Shown here piece after piece: positions 37,563-64,000 of a DNA stretch of 64,000 nucleotides. Position 1 is the first letter of the stretch; every line of letters begins with the position of its first letter. The notes under the pieces were generated by a model. It made no database searches. It had not been told where the DNA came from and saw only the letters and a program-made list of their open reading frames with translations. Source of the stretch: Thermomonas sp. (GTDB lineage: Bacteria; Pseudomonadota; Gammaproteobacteria; Xanthomonadales; Xanthomonadaceae); the NCBI GenBank assembly GCA_047602125.1, contig JASGIB010000001.1:911284-975283 (forward strand), read 5' to 3'. The position numbers and the translations under genes were made by a program.

Positions 37563-37648
37563 CGTCATTCCCGCGAAAGCGGGAATCTCATCGTGGCATT
37601 TGCTTTTGAAGATCAAAAGACTGGATTCCCGCTTTCGCGGGAATGACG
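37563..37648. repeat. CGTC-tagged REP inverted doublet A
   Basis: Perfect 25-bp inverted arms cgtcattcccgcgaaagcgggaatc (37563-37587 and 37624-37648); 36-nt AT-rich spacer. Confidence 0.95.
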
Positions 37649-37660
37649 AGCGAGAAACGA

Positions 37661-38011
37661 GGGGCGGAGCCGGCCGATAAGCCGGGTTCTGTCGTGGACA
37701 GTCATTCCTCTAGGCGCATCGTCGCCGATACGCTCGAGCAGCCTACCCGGAAGCGTCGCGGGCCACGACATCGCTTCCCTATTTGGCCTTGCTCCCGGTG
37801 GGGTTTGCCGTGCCGGTCCGTTGCCGGACTCGCGGTGCGCTCTTACCGCACCATTTCACCCTTACCCGCATCCCGAAGGACCGCTGGCGGTATCTTTCTG
37901 TTGCACTTTCCGTCGGCTCGCGCCGCCCAGGCGTTACCTGGCACCGTGCCCTGTGGAGCCCGGACTTTCCTCGGCACCCTTGCGAGTGACGCGACTGTCT
38001 GGCCGGCTCCG
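37661..38011 (-). ncRNA. rnpB: RNase P RNA (type A)
   Basis: Minus strand contains GAGGAAAGTCCGGGCTCC, GCCAGGTAACGCCTGG, GTGCAACAGAAAG, GGTGCGGTAAGAGCGCACC, GAGCAAGGCCAAATAGGG, ACAGAACCCGGCTTAT. The ends pair (GGAGCCGGCC/GGCCGGCTCC); exact ends are approximate. Confidence 0.97.
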
Positions 38012-44021: not shown

Positions 44022-44104
44022 CGTCATTCCCGCGAAAGCGGGAATCCAGTTTTTGATTTTTCAATAACAGAAAGAGCTGGATGCCCGCCTTCGCGGGCAT
44101 GACG
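44022..44104. repeat. CGTC-tagged REP inverted doublet B
   Basis: 28-nt arms 44022-44049 cgtcattcccgcgaaagcgggaatccag and 44077-44104 (revcomp cgtcatgcccgcgaaggcgggcatccag); AT-rich spacer. Confidence 0.92.
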
Positions 44105-60953: not shown

Positions 60954-62171
60954 TCAGCCGATCACGTTGGTGAGGTCGTAGATCGGGCTGAGCACCGCGA
61001 GGATGACCATGCCCACCACCGCCGCCAGCACCATGGTCACCACCGGCACCAGCGCGGCCAGCATGCGGTCCAGCGCCAGCCCGGTTTCCTGCTCGAAGGT
61101 GTCGGCGGTCTTCAGCAACATGCCGTCGAGCGCGCCGGACTCCTCGCCCACCTGGATCATCTGCAACGCCAGCCGCGGGAAGCGCTTGCTGCGCCCCAGC
61201 GCGGCGGACAGGCCGACGCCGTTCTTCACTTCGTCCGCTGCGGCTTCGACCGCGTCGACGAGGGTGCGGTTCCCGAGCACGTTGCGGCCGATGCCCAGCG
61301 CGGTCAGCAACGGCACGCCGTTCCTGAGCAGGGTACCGAGCGTGCGCGCCAGCCGCGCGGTCTCGAGCTTGGCCACCAGCGGCCCGGCGAAGCGGCGTTC
61401 CAGCAGCCAGGCATCGAGCTTCGCGCGGAACACGGGGTCGCGGCGCTTGCGGTCCAGCCACACCAGCGCCAGCACCGGCACCGCCAGCAGCGCCCACCAC
61501 CAGCCGCGCACGAACATGCCCAGCCCGAGCACCAGCCGCGAGAACCACGGCAGCGGCGCATCGAGGCTGTCGTACATCGCCGCGAACTGCGGCACCACGT
61601 AGCCGAGCAGGAACATCAGGCTGAGCGTGACCATCACCAGCAGGATCGCCGGGTAGATCAGCGCGTTGATCACGCGCGAACGCAGCGCGCGGCTGCGTTC
61701 GAGGTATTCGGCGAGGCGTTGCAGGGTGTCGTGCAGGCTGCCGCCGGCCTCGCCGGCGCGGACCATGTTCACGTACAGGCGCGAGAACGTGCCGTGCTGG
61801 CGTTCCAGCGCCGTCGACAGCGACGCGCCGCCGCGCACCGCGTCGCGGATGTCGGTGATGGTGCGTTTCGCCAATGCGTCTTCGGGCAGTTCGAGCAGGA
61901 TGCCGAGCGCGCGGTCCAGCGGCTGCCCGGCGCCGAGCAGGGTCGCGAGCTGCTGGGTGAACTGCACCAGGCGTTCGCCGGCGAAGGGCTTGGGCTTGAA
62001 CAGCGCGCGCCAGGCGGATTCGCCGCCGCCTTCGCTGGCGAGCCTGGCCTCGATCGGCAAATGGCCCTGTTCCTGCAACCGCGCCGCGACTTCGGTGCCG
62101 CTCGCGGCTTCCATCTGGCCGTCGAGGGTTTCGCCGCGGGAATTCAGGGCTTTGTAGCGATAGAGGGGCAT
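60954..62171 (-). CDS. gspF: T2SS inner-membrane platform protein GspF
   Basis: FTQQLATLL.AG.PL, GEAGGSL, GEESGALD. Confidence 0.96.
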   Translation of the reverse strand: MPLYRYKALNSRGETLDGQMEAASGTEVAARLQEQGHLPIEARLASEGGGESAWRALFKPKPFAGERLVQFTQQLATLLGAGQPLDRALGILLELPEDALAKRTITDIRDAVRGGASLSTALERQHGTFSRLYVNMVRAGEAGGSLHDTLQRLAEYLERSRALRSRVINALIYPAILLVMVTLSLMFLLGYVVPQFAAMYDSLDAPLPWFSRLVLGLGMFVRGWWWALLAVPVLALVWLDRKRRDPVFRAKLDAWLLERRFAGPLVAKLETARLARTLGTLLRNGVPLLTALGIGRNVLGNRTLVDAVEAAADEVKNGVGLSAALGRSKRFPRLALQMIQVGEESGALDGMLLKTADTFEQETGLALDRMLAALVPVVTMVLAAVVGMVILAVLSPIYDLTNVIG

Positions 62172-62193
62172 GGTTCAGCGTGTCTGTTTTGCT

Positions 62194-62607
62194 CGTCATT
62201 CCAGCGAAGCGGCGCTACTTTCCAGCCATCATTCCCGCGAAAGCGGGAATCTCGCCTTTCAAGCCTCCGTACCGACGATCTTGCCCCAAAGATCGATCCA
62301 TTCCGGGTTCTCCTTTTCGATCAACTCGACCTTCCATTCGCGTCGCCATTTCTTGATCTGCTTCTCTCGGGTGATGGCCGAATGCATGGTGCCGTGGATT
62401 TCGTACCAAACCAGCATTGCGACATTGAATTTCTTGGTGAACCCGTCGACCGCATGCGTTCTGTGCTGCCAAGTCCTCGCGATCAAATCACTGGTGACAC
62501 CGATATACAGCACTCCGTAACGACGATGGGCAAGAATGTAGACGGCTGGCTGCTTTTCCATGCAAGCGATCTCAAAAAGACCAGATTCCCGCTTTCGCGG
62601 GAATGAC
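62194..62607. mobile_element. Putative REP-flanked GIY-YIG nuclease cassette inserted between gspE and gspF
   Basis: Perfect 24-bp inverted arms 62229-62252 and 62583-62606 (tcattcccgcgaaagcgggaatct); extra degenerate arm cgtcattccagcgaagcgg at 62194-62212; the interior is about 50% GC (61/120 counted at 62401-62520). Mobility itself is inferred. Confidence 0.65.
62259..62561 (-). CDS. Stand-alone GIY-YIG nuclease (100 aa)
   Basis: AVYIL..., LYIGVTSDL.AR..QH, GFTKKF, REKQIK.W.REWK..LIE..NPEW: conserved Tyr, Gly, Arg, His, Glu and Asn all present. Confidence 0.93.
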   Translation of the reverse strand: MEKQPAVYILAHRRYGVLYIGVTSDLIARTWQHRTHAVDGFTKKFNVAMLVWYEIHGTMHSAITREKQIKKWRREWKVELIEKENPEWIDLWGKIVGTEA

Positions 62608-62611
62608 AGAT

Positions 62612-64000
62612 CTAGGCATCCTCCGTCACGCGCAGCACTTCCTCGATCGTGGTCTCGCCCTGCATGGCCTTGGCGATGCCGTCCTCGTACATGGTGCGCA
62701 TGCCGGCGTTGCGCGCGAGCTGTTCCAGTTCGCCCATGCCTGCATGGCGCATCACCGCGCGGCGCAGTTCGTCGTCCATCACCAGGAATTCCATGATCGT
62801 GGTGCGTCCGAGGTAGCCGGTCGGGGCGATCGCGGAACCGCGCGGCCGGTACAGGAAGATCTCGCCCTCGGGCTGGAAGCGGCGCAGACCGAACTTCTCG
62901 ATTTCCTCGGGCGACGCCGGGTATTTCTCCGCGTGCGTCGGTTCCAGCCGACGCACCAGGCGCTGGGCGAGGATGCCGTTCACGGTGGACGTGAGCAGGT
63001 AGTCCTCGACGCCCATGTCGAGCATGCGGGTGATGCCGCCGGCGGCGTTGTTGGTATGCAGCGTCGACAGCACCAGGTGGCCGGTGAGCGCGGACTGAAT
63101 CGCGATGCGCGCGGTCTCGAGGTCGCGCATTTCGCCGATCATGATGATGTCCGGGTCCTGGCGGACGATGCTGCGCAGGGCGTTGGCGAAATCCAGCCCG
63201 ATCTGCGGCTTGGCCTGGATCTGGTTGATGCCCTCGATCTGGTATTCGACCGGATCCTCGACCGTGATGATCTTGACGTCCGGCGTGTTGAGCTTGCTCA
63301 GCGCGGTGTACAGCGTGGTGGTCTTGCCCGAACCGGTCGGGCCGGTGACCAGCAGGATGCCGTGCGGCTGGTCGAGCACGTGCTGGAACTGCGGCAGGAA
63401 CGCGTCGGTGAAGCCGAGGCGCTTGAAGTCGAACACCACGGTTTCGCGGTCGAGCAGTCGCATCACCACGCTCTCGCCGTGCGCGGTCGGCACGGTGGAG
63501 ACGCGCAGGTCGAGTTCCTTGCCCTGCACGCGCAGCATGATGCGGCCGTCCTGCGGCAGGCGGCGCTCGGCGATGTTGAGCCGCGCCATGATCTTGACGC
63601 GCGAGATCACCGCGGCGGTGAGGTTCTGCGGCGGCGATTCGCCTTCCTCGAGCACGCCGTCGATGCGGTAGCGCACCTTCAGGCGGTTCTCGAACGGCTC
63701 GATGTGGATGTCCGAGGCGCGCAGTTCAACCGCGCGCTGGATGATGAGGTTGACGAGGCGGATCACCGGCGCCTCGGAGGCGAGGTCGCGCAGGTGCTCG
63801 ACGTCGTCGATGTCGCCGGACGATTCGCCGTCGGCGGTTTCGACGATCGCACCCATCGCGCTGCGGCCCTGCCCGTGCCAGCGTTCGATCAGGTCGTCGA
63901 TTTCCGAACGCAGCGCGATGCGCGGGCGCACCGCGCGCCCGGTGGCGAGCCGCACCGCGTCCAGCGCGTAGGCGTCCTGCGGATCGGCGACGAGCAGGTC
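62612..64000 (-). CDS. gspE: T2SS ATPase GspE (5' part lies beyond the window)
   Basis: GPTGSGKTT, EDPVEY, RQDPD.IMIGEMRD, HTNNAAG; the frame stays open to 64000. Confidence 0.97.
   Translation of the reverse strand, partial: DLLVADPQDAYALDAVRLATGRAVRPRIALRSEIDDLIERWHGQGRSAMGAIVETADGESSGDIDDVEHLRDLASEAPVIRLVNLIIQRAVELRASDIHIEPFENRLKVRYRIDGVLEEGESPPQNLTAAVISRVKIMARLNIAERRLPQDGRIMLRVQGKELDLRVSTVPTAHGESVVMRLLDRETVVFDFKRLGFTDAFLPQFQHVLDQPHGILLVTGPTGSGKTTTLYTALSKLNTPDVKIITVEDPVEYQIEGINQIQAKPQIGLDFANALRSIVRQDPDIIMIGEMRDLETARIAIQSALTGHLVLSTLHTNNAAGGITRMLDMGVEDYLLTSTVNGILAQRLVRRLEPTHAEKYPASPEEIEKFGLRRFQPEGEIFLYRPRGSAIAPTGYLGRTTIMEFLVMDDELRRAVMRHAGMGELEQLARNAGMRTMYEDGIAKAMQGETTIEEVLRVTEDA

What the first reader, a model, noticed from the sequence alone, without database searches (positions are those of the whole stretch)
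62194..62607. GIY-YIG nuclease bracketed by CGTC-tagged palindromes: a candidate autonomous partner for a REP family
Seen: a 100-aa GIY-YIG gene with all catalytic motif residues is enclosed by perfect 24-bp inverted arms, each an 8-bp hairpin ATTCCCGC-GAAA-GCGGGAAT with a CGTC-like tag (CATC, TGTC) on the outer side, plus a third degenerate arm at 62194. The cassette is about 50% GC against visibly GC-richer gsp genes and fills the 440-bp gap between gspE and gspF. The same arm forms nuclease-free doublets at 37563 and 44022. Established: GTAG-type REPs are maintained by RAYT (HUH) transposases whose genes are flanked by their own REPs, whereas CGTC-tagged REPs were, as I recall, reported without a dedicated transposase. 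Inference: this GIY-YIG may be the cognate enzyme that nicks or propagates CGTC REP doublets, a RAYT/REPIN-like system built on a different nuclease fold.
Basis: partly seen in the sequence, partly recalled or inferred. Interest (0 to 1): 0.85.

Follow-up and report, generated by a model that had tools for sequence, protein, structure and literature searches.

The report
Known Ssn nuclease with NTS hairpins

Summary
A 100-aa GIY-YIG ORF (62259-62561, minus strand) lies inside a heads-outward pair of 28-nt hairpin arms. The arms share a 24-bp perfect inverted repeat. The cassette is 52.6% GC and fills the 440-bp gspF|gspE gap.

Chenal et al. 2025 (Nat Commun 16:2388) showed that single-domain GIY-YIG "Ssn" nucleases bind and cut ssDNA beside exactly this repeat (NTS, CGTCATTCCCGCGMAVGCGGGAATCYRG). 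They also showed that ssn genes are usually flanked by it, and they drew the REP/RAYT analogy.

Supporting results here:
- The window protein is 64.5% identical (E=7e-35) to the N. gonorrhoeae SsnA orthologue and keeps the catalytic Tyr/Tyr/Glu.
- This genome's consensus arm equals the Neisseria NTS consensus.
- In 80 homologous loci, arms are 54-fold enriched next to the gene.
- Arm counts track ssn presence among 31 relatives (Fisher p=2e-4).

Beyond the paper: the doublets are gained and lost between congeners. The cassette is interleaved with empty gspF|gspE junctions on the host tree. A second arm pair carries an AbiJ-like gene. These results show turnover, but not that Ssn is the mobilising enzyme.

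The parts
62259..62561 (-). ssn gene: 100-aa single-domain GIY-YIG nuclease of the Ssn family, co-oriented with the gsp operon
   Evidence: ORF. Pfam PF01541 E=5e-13. 64.5% identity, E=7e-35, to the 94-aa N. gonorrhoeae SsnA orthologue. Y8, Y19 and E66 align with the Y6, Y17 and E64 mutated in the paper. It is the only copy in the genome.
62581..62608 (-). NTS arm upstream of the ssn start codon, head outward (TGTCATTCCCGCGAAAGCGGGAATCTGG); the hairpin followed by a T-run is terminator-like on the gene strand
   Evidence: Matches the paper's NTS consensus except for the first base. Terminator-like call.
62227..62254 (+). NTS arm downstream of the ssn stop codon, head outward, with a decayed tag (CATC instead of CGTC)
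   Evidence: The G-to-A change lies in the 3 nt upstream of the palindrome that the paper found to govern cleavage.
62187..62226 (+).
   Evidence: Comparison with the intact orthologous cassette in congener G002, which reads ttttgctCGTCATTCCCGCGAAAGCGGGAAT without the 33 nt; sequence.
37563..37648 (.). Doublet A: 86-bp nuclease-free heads-outward NTS doublet, 14 nt beyond the 3' end of RNase P RNA
   Evidence: Folds into one long hairpin, dG -36.6. The site holds an unrelated 57-nt hairpin in G002 and an 870-nt ORF in G001. rnpB lies at 37662-38010 (-).
44022..44104 (.). Doublet B: 83-bp NTS doublet whose second arm has a compensated stem variant (ATGCCCGC...GCGGGCAT)
   Evidence: Cleanly absent from both congeners, where the flanking genes abut.
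60954..62171 (-). gspF (T2SS protein F), downstream neighbour; context only
   Evidence: Pfam PF00482 E=1e-59.
62612..64000 (-). gspE (T2SS ATPase), upstream neighbour, runs off the window; context only
   Evidence: Pfam PF00437 E=5e-146.

Best explanation
This is a canonical NTS-ssn-NTS unit. It holds a gene for an Ssn-family, single-domain GIY-YIG, site-specific single-stranded-DNA endonuclease, nested inside a heads-outward pair of its own recognition hairpins (NTS/SRM, the CGTC-1/dRS3 class of REPs).

By homology with the characterised Neisseria and Wolbachia enzymes, the protein should bind the arm only when it is extruded as ssDNA, on the strand that reads 5'-CGTCATTCCCGCGAAAGCGGGAATC. 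It should then hydrolyse that strand a few nucleotides 5' of the CGTC tag. It should not act on dsDNA or RNA.

About 20 other loci in the genome carry the same arms, mostly as 83-122-bp doublets, and are further substrates. The unit and the doublets are evolutionarily unstable. They are gained and lost between congeners and across genera, and the unit has spread across phyla.

Shown here: family membership, repeat identity, gene-repeat association and turnover. Inferred from published homologues: ssDNA binding and cleavage. Unknown: the biological role in this organism (restriction of NTS-bearing transforming ssDNA, as in Neisseria, or repeat mobilisation).
For: Protein:
- PF01541 only, 100 aa.
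- Best hit in PLSDB is a mislabelled N. gonorrhoeae chromosome: 64.5% identity over 93 aa, E=7e-35, a 94-aa ORF sitting among 16 NTS in 3.3 kb.
- The catalytic Y/Y/E are invariant.
- 4,026 clusters at 50% identity are related at E<=1e-10.

Repeat:
- The genome consensus arm CGTCATTCCCGCGAAAGCGGGAATCCAG equals the published NTS consensus.
- 11 exact matches and 27 within 2 mismatches in 2.69 Mb.

Association:
- In 80 named homologous loci from many phyla, 63 have the paper's SRM pattern within 150 nt and 39 have it on both sides.
- Density is 5.07/kb proximally against 0.095/kb distally.
- 24 of the 39 two-sided loci share the window's architecture.
- Other ssn copies in congeners carry their own stem variants.

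Correlation: among 31 relatives, 12 of 15 ssn-positive genomes have at least 5 arms and 14 of 16 ssn-negative genomes have fewer than 5. Fisher p=2.4e-4, or 1.6e-3 with one genome per genus. The reversed-pattern control gives 0.

Biochemistry and function of homologues: Chenal et al. 2025.
Against: - No biochemical test of this particular protein exists.
- CDD cd10448 assignment could not be run. There is no solved structure and no NCBIfam model.
- The left arm of this copy has a mutated tag (CATC) and a 33-nt disruption, so one end may be cleavage-dead.
- Two relatives (G010, G013) have 34 and 85 arms without a detectable ssn. Three distant ssn homologues have no arms of this pattern.
- Competence of this organism, and hence the transformation-restriction role, is untested.
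Confidence: 0.87

Rival explanations
1. One reading: Ssn is the mobilising enzyme. The NTS-ssn-NTS unit would be an autonomous element and the doublets its non-autonomous (REPIN/MITE-like) derivatives, moved through ssDNA hairpin intermediates. This would be functionally analogous to RAYT/REP but with a GIY-YIG fold. It extends the best explanation rather than contradicting it.
For: - IS-like architecture: the gene sits 10-40 nt inside 28-nt inverted ends in 24 of 39 two-sided loci.
- Doublets share the arm plus about 8 further inner nucleotides (GGGAATC YSG TCTTTTG) with the cassette ends.
- Doublets are present or absent between congeners at 90% genome identity: 955305, 2218228, 301309 and 1537347.
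- Arm number correlates with ssn presence.
- Identities of 58-74% across phyla, with near-identical arms, imply horizontal spread.
- The paper raises the same hypothesis.
Against: - GIY-YIG enzymes hydrolyse DNA and are not known to form covalent intermediates or to catalyse strand transfer.
- The published enzyme only cleaves, and in heads-outward doublets the two cuts fall on opposite strands.
- No target-site duplication or conserved target could be defined.
- G000 has a single ssn copy with a decayed end.
- G010 and G013 keep many arms without ssn.
- Turnover of intergenic palindromes can also come from recombination and deletion.
Confidence: 0.22
2. The cassette at gspF|gspE is one old insertion that moves between Lysobacteraceae by homologous recombination through the highly conserved gspE/gspF flanks (for example by transformation), and is lost by deletion. 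Its patchiness then reflects recombination, not transposition.
For: - Seven gsp-junction copies from at least six genera are compatible with a single clade (AU p=0.88; the constrained tree has the higher likelihood).
- Occupied and empty junctions are interleaved on the GspE+GspF tree: 4-5 changes, 0 of 200 bootstrap trees with a single change.
- The flanks are 82-95% identical in nucleotides across genera.
- G001's gspE 3' end resembles empty-site genomes more than its sister G002 does.
Against: - This does not explain the roughly 20 dispersed doublets, or the many different contexts of ssn in other taxa.
- The ssn tree (97 columns) has little power.
- The GspE+GspF tree may itself be affected by recombination.
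Confidence: 0.2
3. Homing-type invasion: the doublets are older, and the ssn ORF is a selfish gene that inserts into the centre of pre-existing doublets, as free-standing homing endonuclease genes do.
For: The gene lies inside a doublet in most loci. Doublets without the gene are much more numerous.
Against: - The published cleavage site is outside the heads, not in the doublet centre.
- Ssn lacks the DNA-binding domain of GIY-YIG homing enzymes.
- There is only one ssn copy despite about 12 available doublets in G000.
- In Neisseria the gene lies between doublets, not inside one.
Confidence: 0.07
4. Coincidence: the gspF|gspE spacer is simply a hotspot where palindromic repeats and a stray gene accumulated independently.
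For: The same junction holds unrelated REP-like palindromes in G001, G007, G010, G012, G013 and G014.
Against: There is 54-fold enrichment of arms next to ssn in 80 unrelated contexts, zero motif hits in shuffles, and published biochemistry linking the enzyme to the repeat.
Confidence: 0.01

Closest known systems
Ssn / NTS (SRM) system: SsnA of Neisseria meningitidis and its family (CDD cd10448); Chenal et al., Nat Commun 2025, PMC11893778
   Same: A single-domain GIY-YIG protein of about 94-100 aa, 64.5% identical to the gonococcal orthologue, with identical catalytic residues. The repeat consensus is the same 28 nt (CGTCATTCCCGCGAAAGCGGGAATCCAG). The gene is flanked by its repeats, which also occur as dispersed inverted doublets and as NTS-gene-NTS units.
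   Different: Here the gene lies inside one heads-outward doublet, which is the majority architecture across phyla. In Neisseria it lies between doublets, with the nearest heads facing the gene. There are only about 30 arms per genome, against hundreds in pathogenic Neisseria. The host is an environmental Lysobacteraceae, and the unit is inserted in a T2SS operon. Activity and role are untested here.
CGTC-tagged REPs, family CGTC-1 = dRS3 (Di Nocera et al., BMC Genomics 2013, PMC3733652)
   Same: The same tag, the same ATTCCC-N8-GGGAAT core, and predominantly dimer organisation in intergenic positions downstream of genes.
   Different: That paper found no associated enzyme. The association with the GIY-YIG gene is what the 2025 paper added.
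REP/REPIN-RAYT systems (IS200/IS605-related HUH Y1 transposases; Nunvar 2010, Bertels & Rainey 2011; from my own knowledge)
   Same: A small nuclease gene flanked by its own hairpin repeats. The repeats form inverted doublets dispersed in intergenic regions, are recognised as ssDNA hairpins, and carry a conserved 4-nt tag beside the stem.
   Different: The fold and chemistry differ: a GIY-YIG hydrolase against an HUH tyrosine enzyme with a covalent intermediate. The tag is CGTC rather than GTAG. Cuts are predicted on opposite strands of a doublet. Transposition has not been demonstrated.
Free-standing GIY-YIG homing endonucleases (I-TevI type; from my own knowledge)
   Same: GIY-YIG catalytic domain, a selfish-looking small gene, low GC relative to the host, and patchy distribution.
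   Different: There is no DNA-binding domain, the substrate is ssDNA rather than dsDNA, and the recognition sequence is kept intact on both sides of the gene instead of being disrupted.

Membership tests
Ssn nuclease family (Chenal et al. 2025) | Single-domain GIY-YIG protein of about 90-100 aa without an accessory DNA-binding domain | tested here: met
   100 aa; PF01541 covers residues 6-77 and is the only Pfam hit.
Ssn nuclease family (Chenal et al. 2025) | Homology to Neisseria SsnA at E < 1e-10 (the paper's criterion) | tested here: met
   tblastn E=7e-35 with 64.5% identity over 93 aa to the 94-aa ORF of N. gonorrhoeae. The same ORF is found in N. gonorrhoeae DSM 9188, locus L074. The gonococcal orthologue stood in for N. 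meningitidis NMV_0044, which was not available.
Ssn nuclease family (Chenal et al. 2025) | Catalytic residues equivalent to Y6, Y17 and E64 of SsnA | tested here: met
   Y8, Y19 and E66 are invariant in the 15-sequence alignment that includes the gonococcal protein; the mutants are described.
Ssn nuclease family (Chenal et al. 2025) | Gene flanked by NTS/SRM hairpin repeats | tested here: met
   Arms on both sides, 4 and 19 nt from the ORF. Canonical arms match the paper's SRM regular expression.
Ssn nuclease family (Chenal et al. 2025) | Assignment to CDD cd10448 (GIY-YIG_unchar_3) | not testable with these tools
   CDD is not among the libraries; NCBIfam gave no hit.
Ssn nuclease family (Chenal et al. 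2025) | Binds and cleaves only ssDNA, upstream of the oriented NTS | not testable with these tools
   This requires purified protein; it is inferred from homologues.
REP/REPIN-RAYT system | HUH / Y1 (IS200/IS605-like) transposase | tested here: not met
   The enclosed protein is GIY-YIG only.
REP/REPIN-RAYT system | GTAG tag at the REP head | tested here: not met
   The tag is CGTC in 30 of 38 arms.
REP/REPIN-RAYT system | Nuclease gene flanked by its own REPs, which also occur as dispersed inverted doublets | tested here: met
   This is an analogy of architecture only.
Autonomous insertion sequence / MITE pair | Several near-identical full-length copies per genome | tested here: not met
   One ssn copy in G000. 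Congeners have 3-5 copies, but these are divergent (49-91% identity to the window protein) and carry different arm variants.
Autonomous insertion sequence / MITE pair | Target-site duplication or a defined target sequence at filled versus empty sites | tested here: inconclusive
   Empty sites were found, but the flanks are too diverged to define the ends. One outer flank is usually TTTTGCT, and no clear duplication is visible.
Autonomous insertion sequence / MITE pair | Presence/absence polymorphism among close relatives | tested here: met
   Doublets at 955305, 2218228, 301309 and 1537347, and the cassette itself, are polymorphic.
GIY-YIG homing endonuclease | Nuclease domain tethered to a sequence-specific DNA-binding domain | tested here: not met
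   No second domain is present; the protein is 100 aa.

The most novel reading that the evidence does not exclude
The NTS-ssn-NTS unit is a genuine autonomous mobile element, and the roughly 100-aa GIY-YIG nuclease is its only enzyme. It would excise and re-insert the unit and its gene-less doublets through ssDNA hairpin intermediates, with host repair completing the reaction. That would be a transposition mechanism outside all recognised transposase classes. The repeated gain and loss at the gspF|gspE junction in Lysobacteraceae would then be its footprint.
Probability: 0.2. Interest if true: 0.75.

Novelty: already known. Interest (0 to 1): 0.27.

Why it matters
The finding closes the loop on the 2013 puzzle of the transposase-less CGTC REPs, but the literature closed it in 2025. 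The value of this case is confirmatory, and it supplies material for the question that remains open.

It confirms that the canonical Neisseria NTS, base for base, and its nuclease also live in environmental Lysobacteraceae and in many other phyla. It also shows that the dominant architecture is a roughly 380-bp IS-like unit.

For the open question, one conserved operon junction (gspF|gspE) is alternately empty, occupied by ssn, or occupied by other palindromes across sister genera. Doublets also turn over between congeners. This is a convenient natural system for testing whether Ssn mobilises its repeats or whether recombination explains their spread. For annotation, such ORFs should be named Ssn-family ssDNA endonucleases rather than 'GIY-YIG nuclease family protein'.

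Tried and rejected
- Solved structures: no PDB relative at E<=0.01.
- NCBIfam: no model matched.
- The paper's supplementary tables are not held, so I could not check whether this genus is in its lists or obtain NMV_0044.
- The 14 named control genomes of the genome search do not include Neisseria. The link to Neisseria came instead from two gonococcal chromosomes mislabelled as plasmids in PLSDB.
- A 15-sequence alignment was too diverse for the search for related loci; a 4-sequence one worked.
- MAFFT alignment of filled against empty loci misaligned three of four cases, so I replaced it with flank anchoring.
- I searched for target-site duplications at the gsp junction and at doublet B. The left flank (catggttcagcgtgtctg) loosely resembles the empty site (catggggtcaggcgtcctc), but other occupied genomes show nothing comparable. 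I judged this inconclusive.
- The CGTC in the empty site is simply the Asp-Ala codons at the end of gspE, so I do not treat it as a target.
- The Ssn protein tree (97 columns) is unresolved. It cannot separate one insertion from several, and the AU test does not reject one clade.
- Chance co-location is rejected.

Full report
**What is there.**
The window carries a 100-aa ORF on the minus strand (62259-62561) whose only Pfam match is the GIY-YIG catalytic domain (E=5e-13). It fills the 440-bp spacer between gspF (60954-62171) and gspE (62612 onward). Both are on the same strand as the ORF. The ORF is bracketed by two 28-nt arms:
- 62227-62254 (+): CATCATTCCCGCGAAAGCGGGAATCTCG
- 62581-62608 (-): TGTCATTCCCGCGAAAGCGGGAATCTGG

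The arms share a 24-bp perfect inverted stretch. Each folds into an 8-bp stem with a GAAA loop (DNA dG -9.0). The cassette is 52.6% GC against 67-70% for the gsp genes. The hairpin occurs six times in the window and never in 100 shuffles. The other four copies form two nuclease-free doublets at 37563-37648 and 44022-44104.

The 'third arm' at 62194 is not an extra arm. In the orthologous cassette of a congener (G002) the left end reads ttttgctCGTCATTCCCGCGAAAGCGGGAAT. The window copy has 33 additional nucleotides that separate the original CGTC head from its hairpin and create the secondary CATC head.

**The whole genome.**
The genome is one 2.69-Mb contig at 67.5% GC. It holds about 20 genuine loci with this arm. 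Eleven arms match the published NTS consensus exactly and 27 lie within two mismatches. Most loci are 83-122-bp doublets with the CGTC heads facing outward. About half of the arms carry TTTTGCT outside the head. Conservation continues about 8 nt inside the arm (GGGAATC-YSG-TCTTTTG), and the cassette ends share this with the doublets. The genome has only one copy of this nuclease. The only other GIY-YIG gene lies in a 632-aa open frame, probably uvrC. A second arm pair (genome 590214-591479) encloses a 56%-GC, 353-aa ORF with an AbiJ_NTD4 domain (E=7e-19).

**Literature.**
A full-text search found Chenal et al., Nat Commun 2025 (PMC11893778). They define the Neisseria Transformation Sequence as CGTCATTCCCGCGMAVGCGGGAATCYRG, an oriented subset of dRS3. 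Their main results:
- The 94-aa single-domain GIY-YIG protein SsnA binds the NTS only as ssDNA and cuts a few nucleotides upstream.
- The three nucleotides before the palindrome govern cleavage, and the C after it governs binding.
- Y6A, Y17A and E64A abolish cutting.
- SsnA lowers transformation by NTS-bearing DNA.
- 71% of homologues have an SRM nearby and 42% have one on both sides.
- 81% of genomes with more than 200 SRMs encode a homologue.

Their discussion notes that NTS-ssnA-NTS looks like an insertion sequence and compares it with IS200/IS605 and REP/BIME systems. I found no later paper showing mobility.

**Membership.**
A tblastn search of PLSDB happened to hit two N. gonorrhoeae chromosomes filed as plasmids. 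The window protein is 64.5% identical over 93 residues (E=7e-35) to a 94-aa ORF that sits among 16 NTS copies within 3.3 kb. In an alignment with that protein and 13 diverse representatives, Y8, Y19 and E66 are invariant; these are the equivalents of the mutated residues. The consensus of this genome's 38 arms is CGTCATTCCCGCGAAAGCGGGAATCCAG, which is identical to the Neisseria consensus. The family is very large, with 4,026 clusters at 50% identity at E<=1e-10. CDD assignment and enzymology could not be tested. No PDB or NCBIfam relative exists.

**Independent tests of the association.**
A scan of one genome per species returned 80 named loci from many phyla, at 58-74% identity to the window protein. 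These include Pseudomonadota, Thermodesulfobacteriota, Chloroflexota, Nitrospirota and Planctomycetota, and four Neisseria loci. I applied the paper's degenerate SRM pattern:
- 63 of 80 loci have an arm within 150 nt of the gene, and 39 of 80 have one on both sides.
- Arm density is 5.07 per kb proximally against 0.095 per kb more than 400 nt away, a 54-fold difference.
- The most common two-sided architecture (24 of 39) is the window's: gene inside a heads-outward doublet, arms 10-40 nt upstream and 1-35 nt downstream.
- Neisseria belongs to the minority in which the nearest heads face the gene.

Other ssn copies in the two congeners carry their own compensated stem variants (ATGCCTGC, ATCCCAGC, ATCCCGGC). 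Among 31 relatives, 12 of 15 ssn-positive genomes have at least 5 arms, and 14 of 16 ssn-negative genomes have fewer than 5. Fisher p=2.4e-4, or 1.6e-3 with one genome per genus, and the reversed-pattern control is zero everywhere. The exceptions are G010 and G013, with 34 and 85 arms but no ssn, and three distant homologues without arms of this pattern.

**Turnover.**
Flanks of all 20 loci were searched in the two congeners, which share roughly 75-96% nucleotide identity with G000 over the matched flanks.
- Doublet B is absent from both, and there the neighbouring genes abut.
- The doublets at 2218228 and 301309 are replaced by 16 and 25 nt of unrelated spacer in G002. The doublet at 1537347 is replaced by 29 nt in G001.
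- Doublet A's site holds an unrelated hairpin in G002 and an 870-nt ORF in G001.
- The NTS-AbiJ-NTS unit is unique to G000.

At the gspF|gspE junction the picture is as follows:
- G002 has the same cassette at 90% identity.
- G001 has a different 110-nt palindromic doublet.
- Five other genera have the two genes 4-6 nt apart.
- Five genera carry unrelated REP-like palindromes.
- Five further genomes carry an ssn cassette at the same junction: G004, G006, an uncultured gammaproteobacterium, Lysobacter sp. TAF61 and a Pseudoxanthomonas MAG.

The Ssn tree is unresolved. An AU test does not reject monophyly of the seven junction copies (p=0.88). On a GspE+GspF tree the occupied and empty states are interleaved. 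The tree needs 4-5 changes, none of 200 bootstrap trees allows a single change, and well-supported branches force at least two. The cassette has therefore been lost or gained repeatedly at one site. This could arise by precise excision, by repeated insertion, or by homologous exchange through the conserved flanks. The data do not discriminate between these. No target-site duplication could be defined.

**How it most likely works.**
By homology, the protein recognises each arm when it is extruded as ssDNA, on the strand reading 5'-CGTC..., and hydrolyses a few nucleotides 5' of the tag. In a heads-outward doublet the two cleavable strands are opposite, so the predicted cuts bracket the unit on opposite strands.

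In this copy the upstream arm (TGTC) keeps the GTC that the paper found critical for cleavage. The downstream arm (CATC) has lost it, and its original head is displaced. That end is probably bound but poorly cut.

The gene is co-oriented with gspE and gspF. The upstream arm followed by CTGGTCTTTT scores as terminator-like on the gene strand, so some polarity on gspF is possible. The arrangement is nevertheless retained in G002.

The role in this organism is not known. It may restrict NTS-bearing incoming ssDNA, modulate recombination, or mobilise the repeats.

**Verdict.**
The locus is an ordinary, canonical member of the Ssn/NTS system. The claim that the nuclease propagates the repeats remains a hypothesis. 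I put it at about 0.2, because GIY-YIG chemistry offers no known strand-transfer route and the turnover seen here has other possible causes. Earlier notes of this scan on other genomes name the same closest known system. They are unchecked leads and were not used as evidence.

Noticed in passing
genome C1:590214-591479 (outside the window): A second heads-outward NTS arm pair encloses a 353-aa, 56%-GC ORF with an AbiJ_NTD4 domain (E=7e-19). This is an NTS-gene-NTS unit carrying a putative abortive-infection gene. It is absent from both congeners, which hold other sequences at that site.
   Followed up: partly
window 37563-37648 and 37662-38010: Doublet A lies 14 nt beyond the 3' end of RNase P RNA (Rfam RF00010, 322 bits). 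In congener G002 the same position holds an unrelated GC-rich hairpin, so the doublet seems to have replaced the rnpB terminator hairpin.
   Followed up: partly
gspF|gspE junction in relatives (L013, L018, L019, L023, L024, L026): The same 4-6-nt junction is occupied in other genera by unrelated palindromic elements. Some have tandem GGGAATC/GGGACCC-type arms. G001 has a 110-nt doublet of the GTCATCCTGAGGCGCAGCCGAAGGACCTGC type, and a copy of that type also sits beside an NTS arm at genome position 2328380. The junction is a general hotspot for hairpin repeats.
   Followed up: partly
L066 (Lysobacter sp. TAF61) 1250-1930 and L017 (G006): At the same gsp junction the arms flanking ssn are amplified into tandem arrays: seven direct 33-nt units upstream and five downstream in L066, and four arms plus other tandem repeats in G006.
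   Followed up: no
relatives G010 and G013: Two draft genomes have 34 and 85 arms of the NTS pattern but no detectable ssn homologue at E<=1e-10. These are 'orphan' repeat populations, or the gene is missing from the assemblies.
   Followed up: no
genome-wide arms: Doublets are asymmetric. One head is usually preceded by TTTTGCT and its inner side reads CCAG-TCTTT. The partner head is preceded by nGC and its inner side reads CTCG-TYTTT. This suggests two arm subtypes, or a longer conserved end than the published 28-nt NTS.
   Followed up: partly
PLSDB records NZ_CP119140.1 and NZ_CP119142.1: Two 2.17-Mb Neisseria gonorrhoeae chromosomes are filed as plasmids in the plasmid collection.
   Followed up: no
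protein representatives: Many database gene calls for this family are 120-150 aa, with the homology starting at about residue 35-55. The N-terminal extensions probably come from reading through the upstream arm (the SFPRKRES / IPAKAGI type peptides).
   Followed up: no
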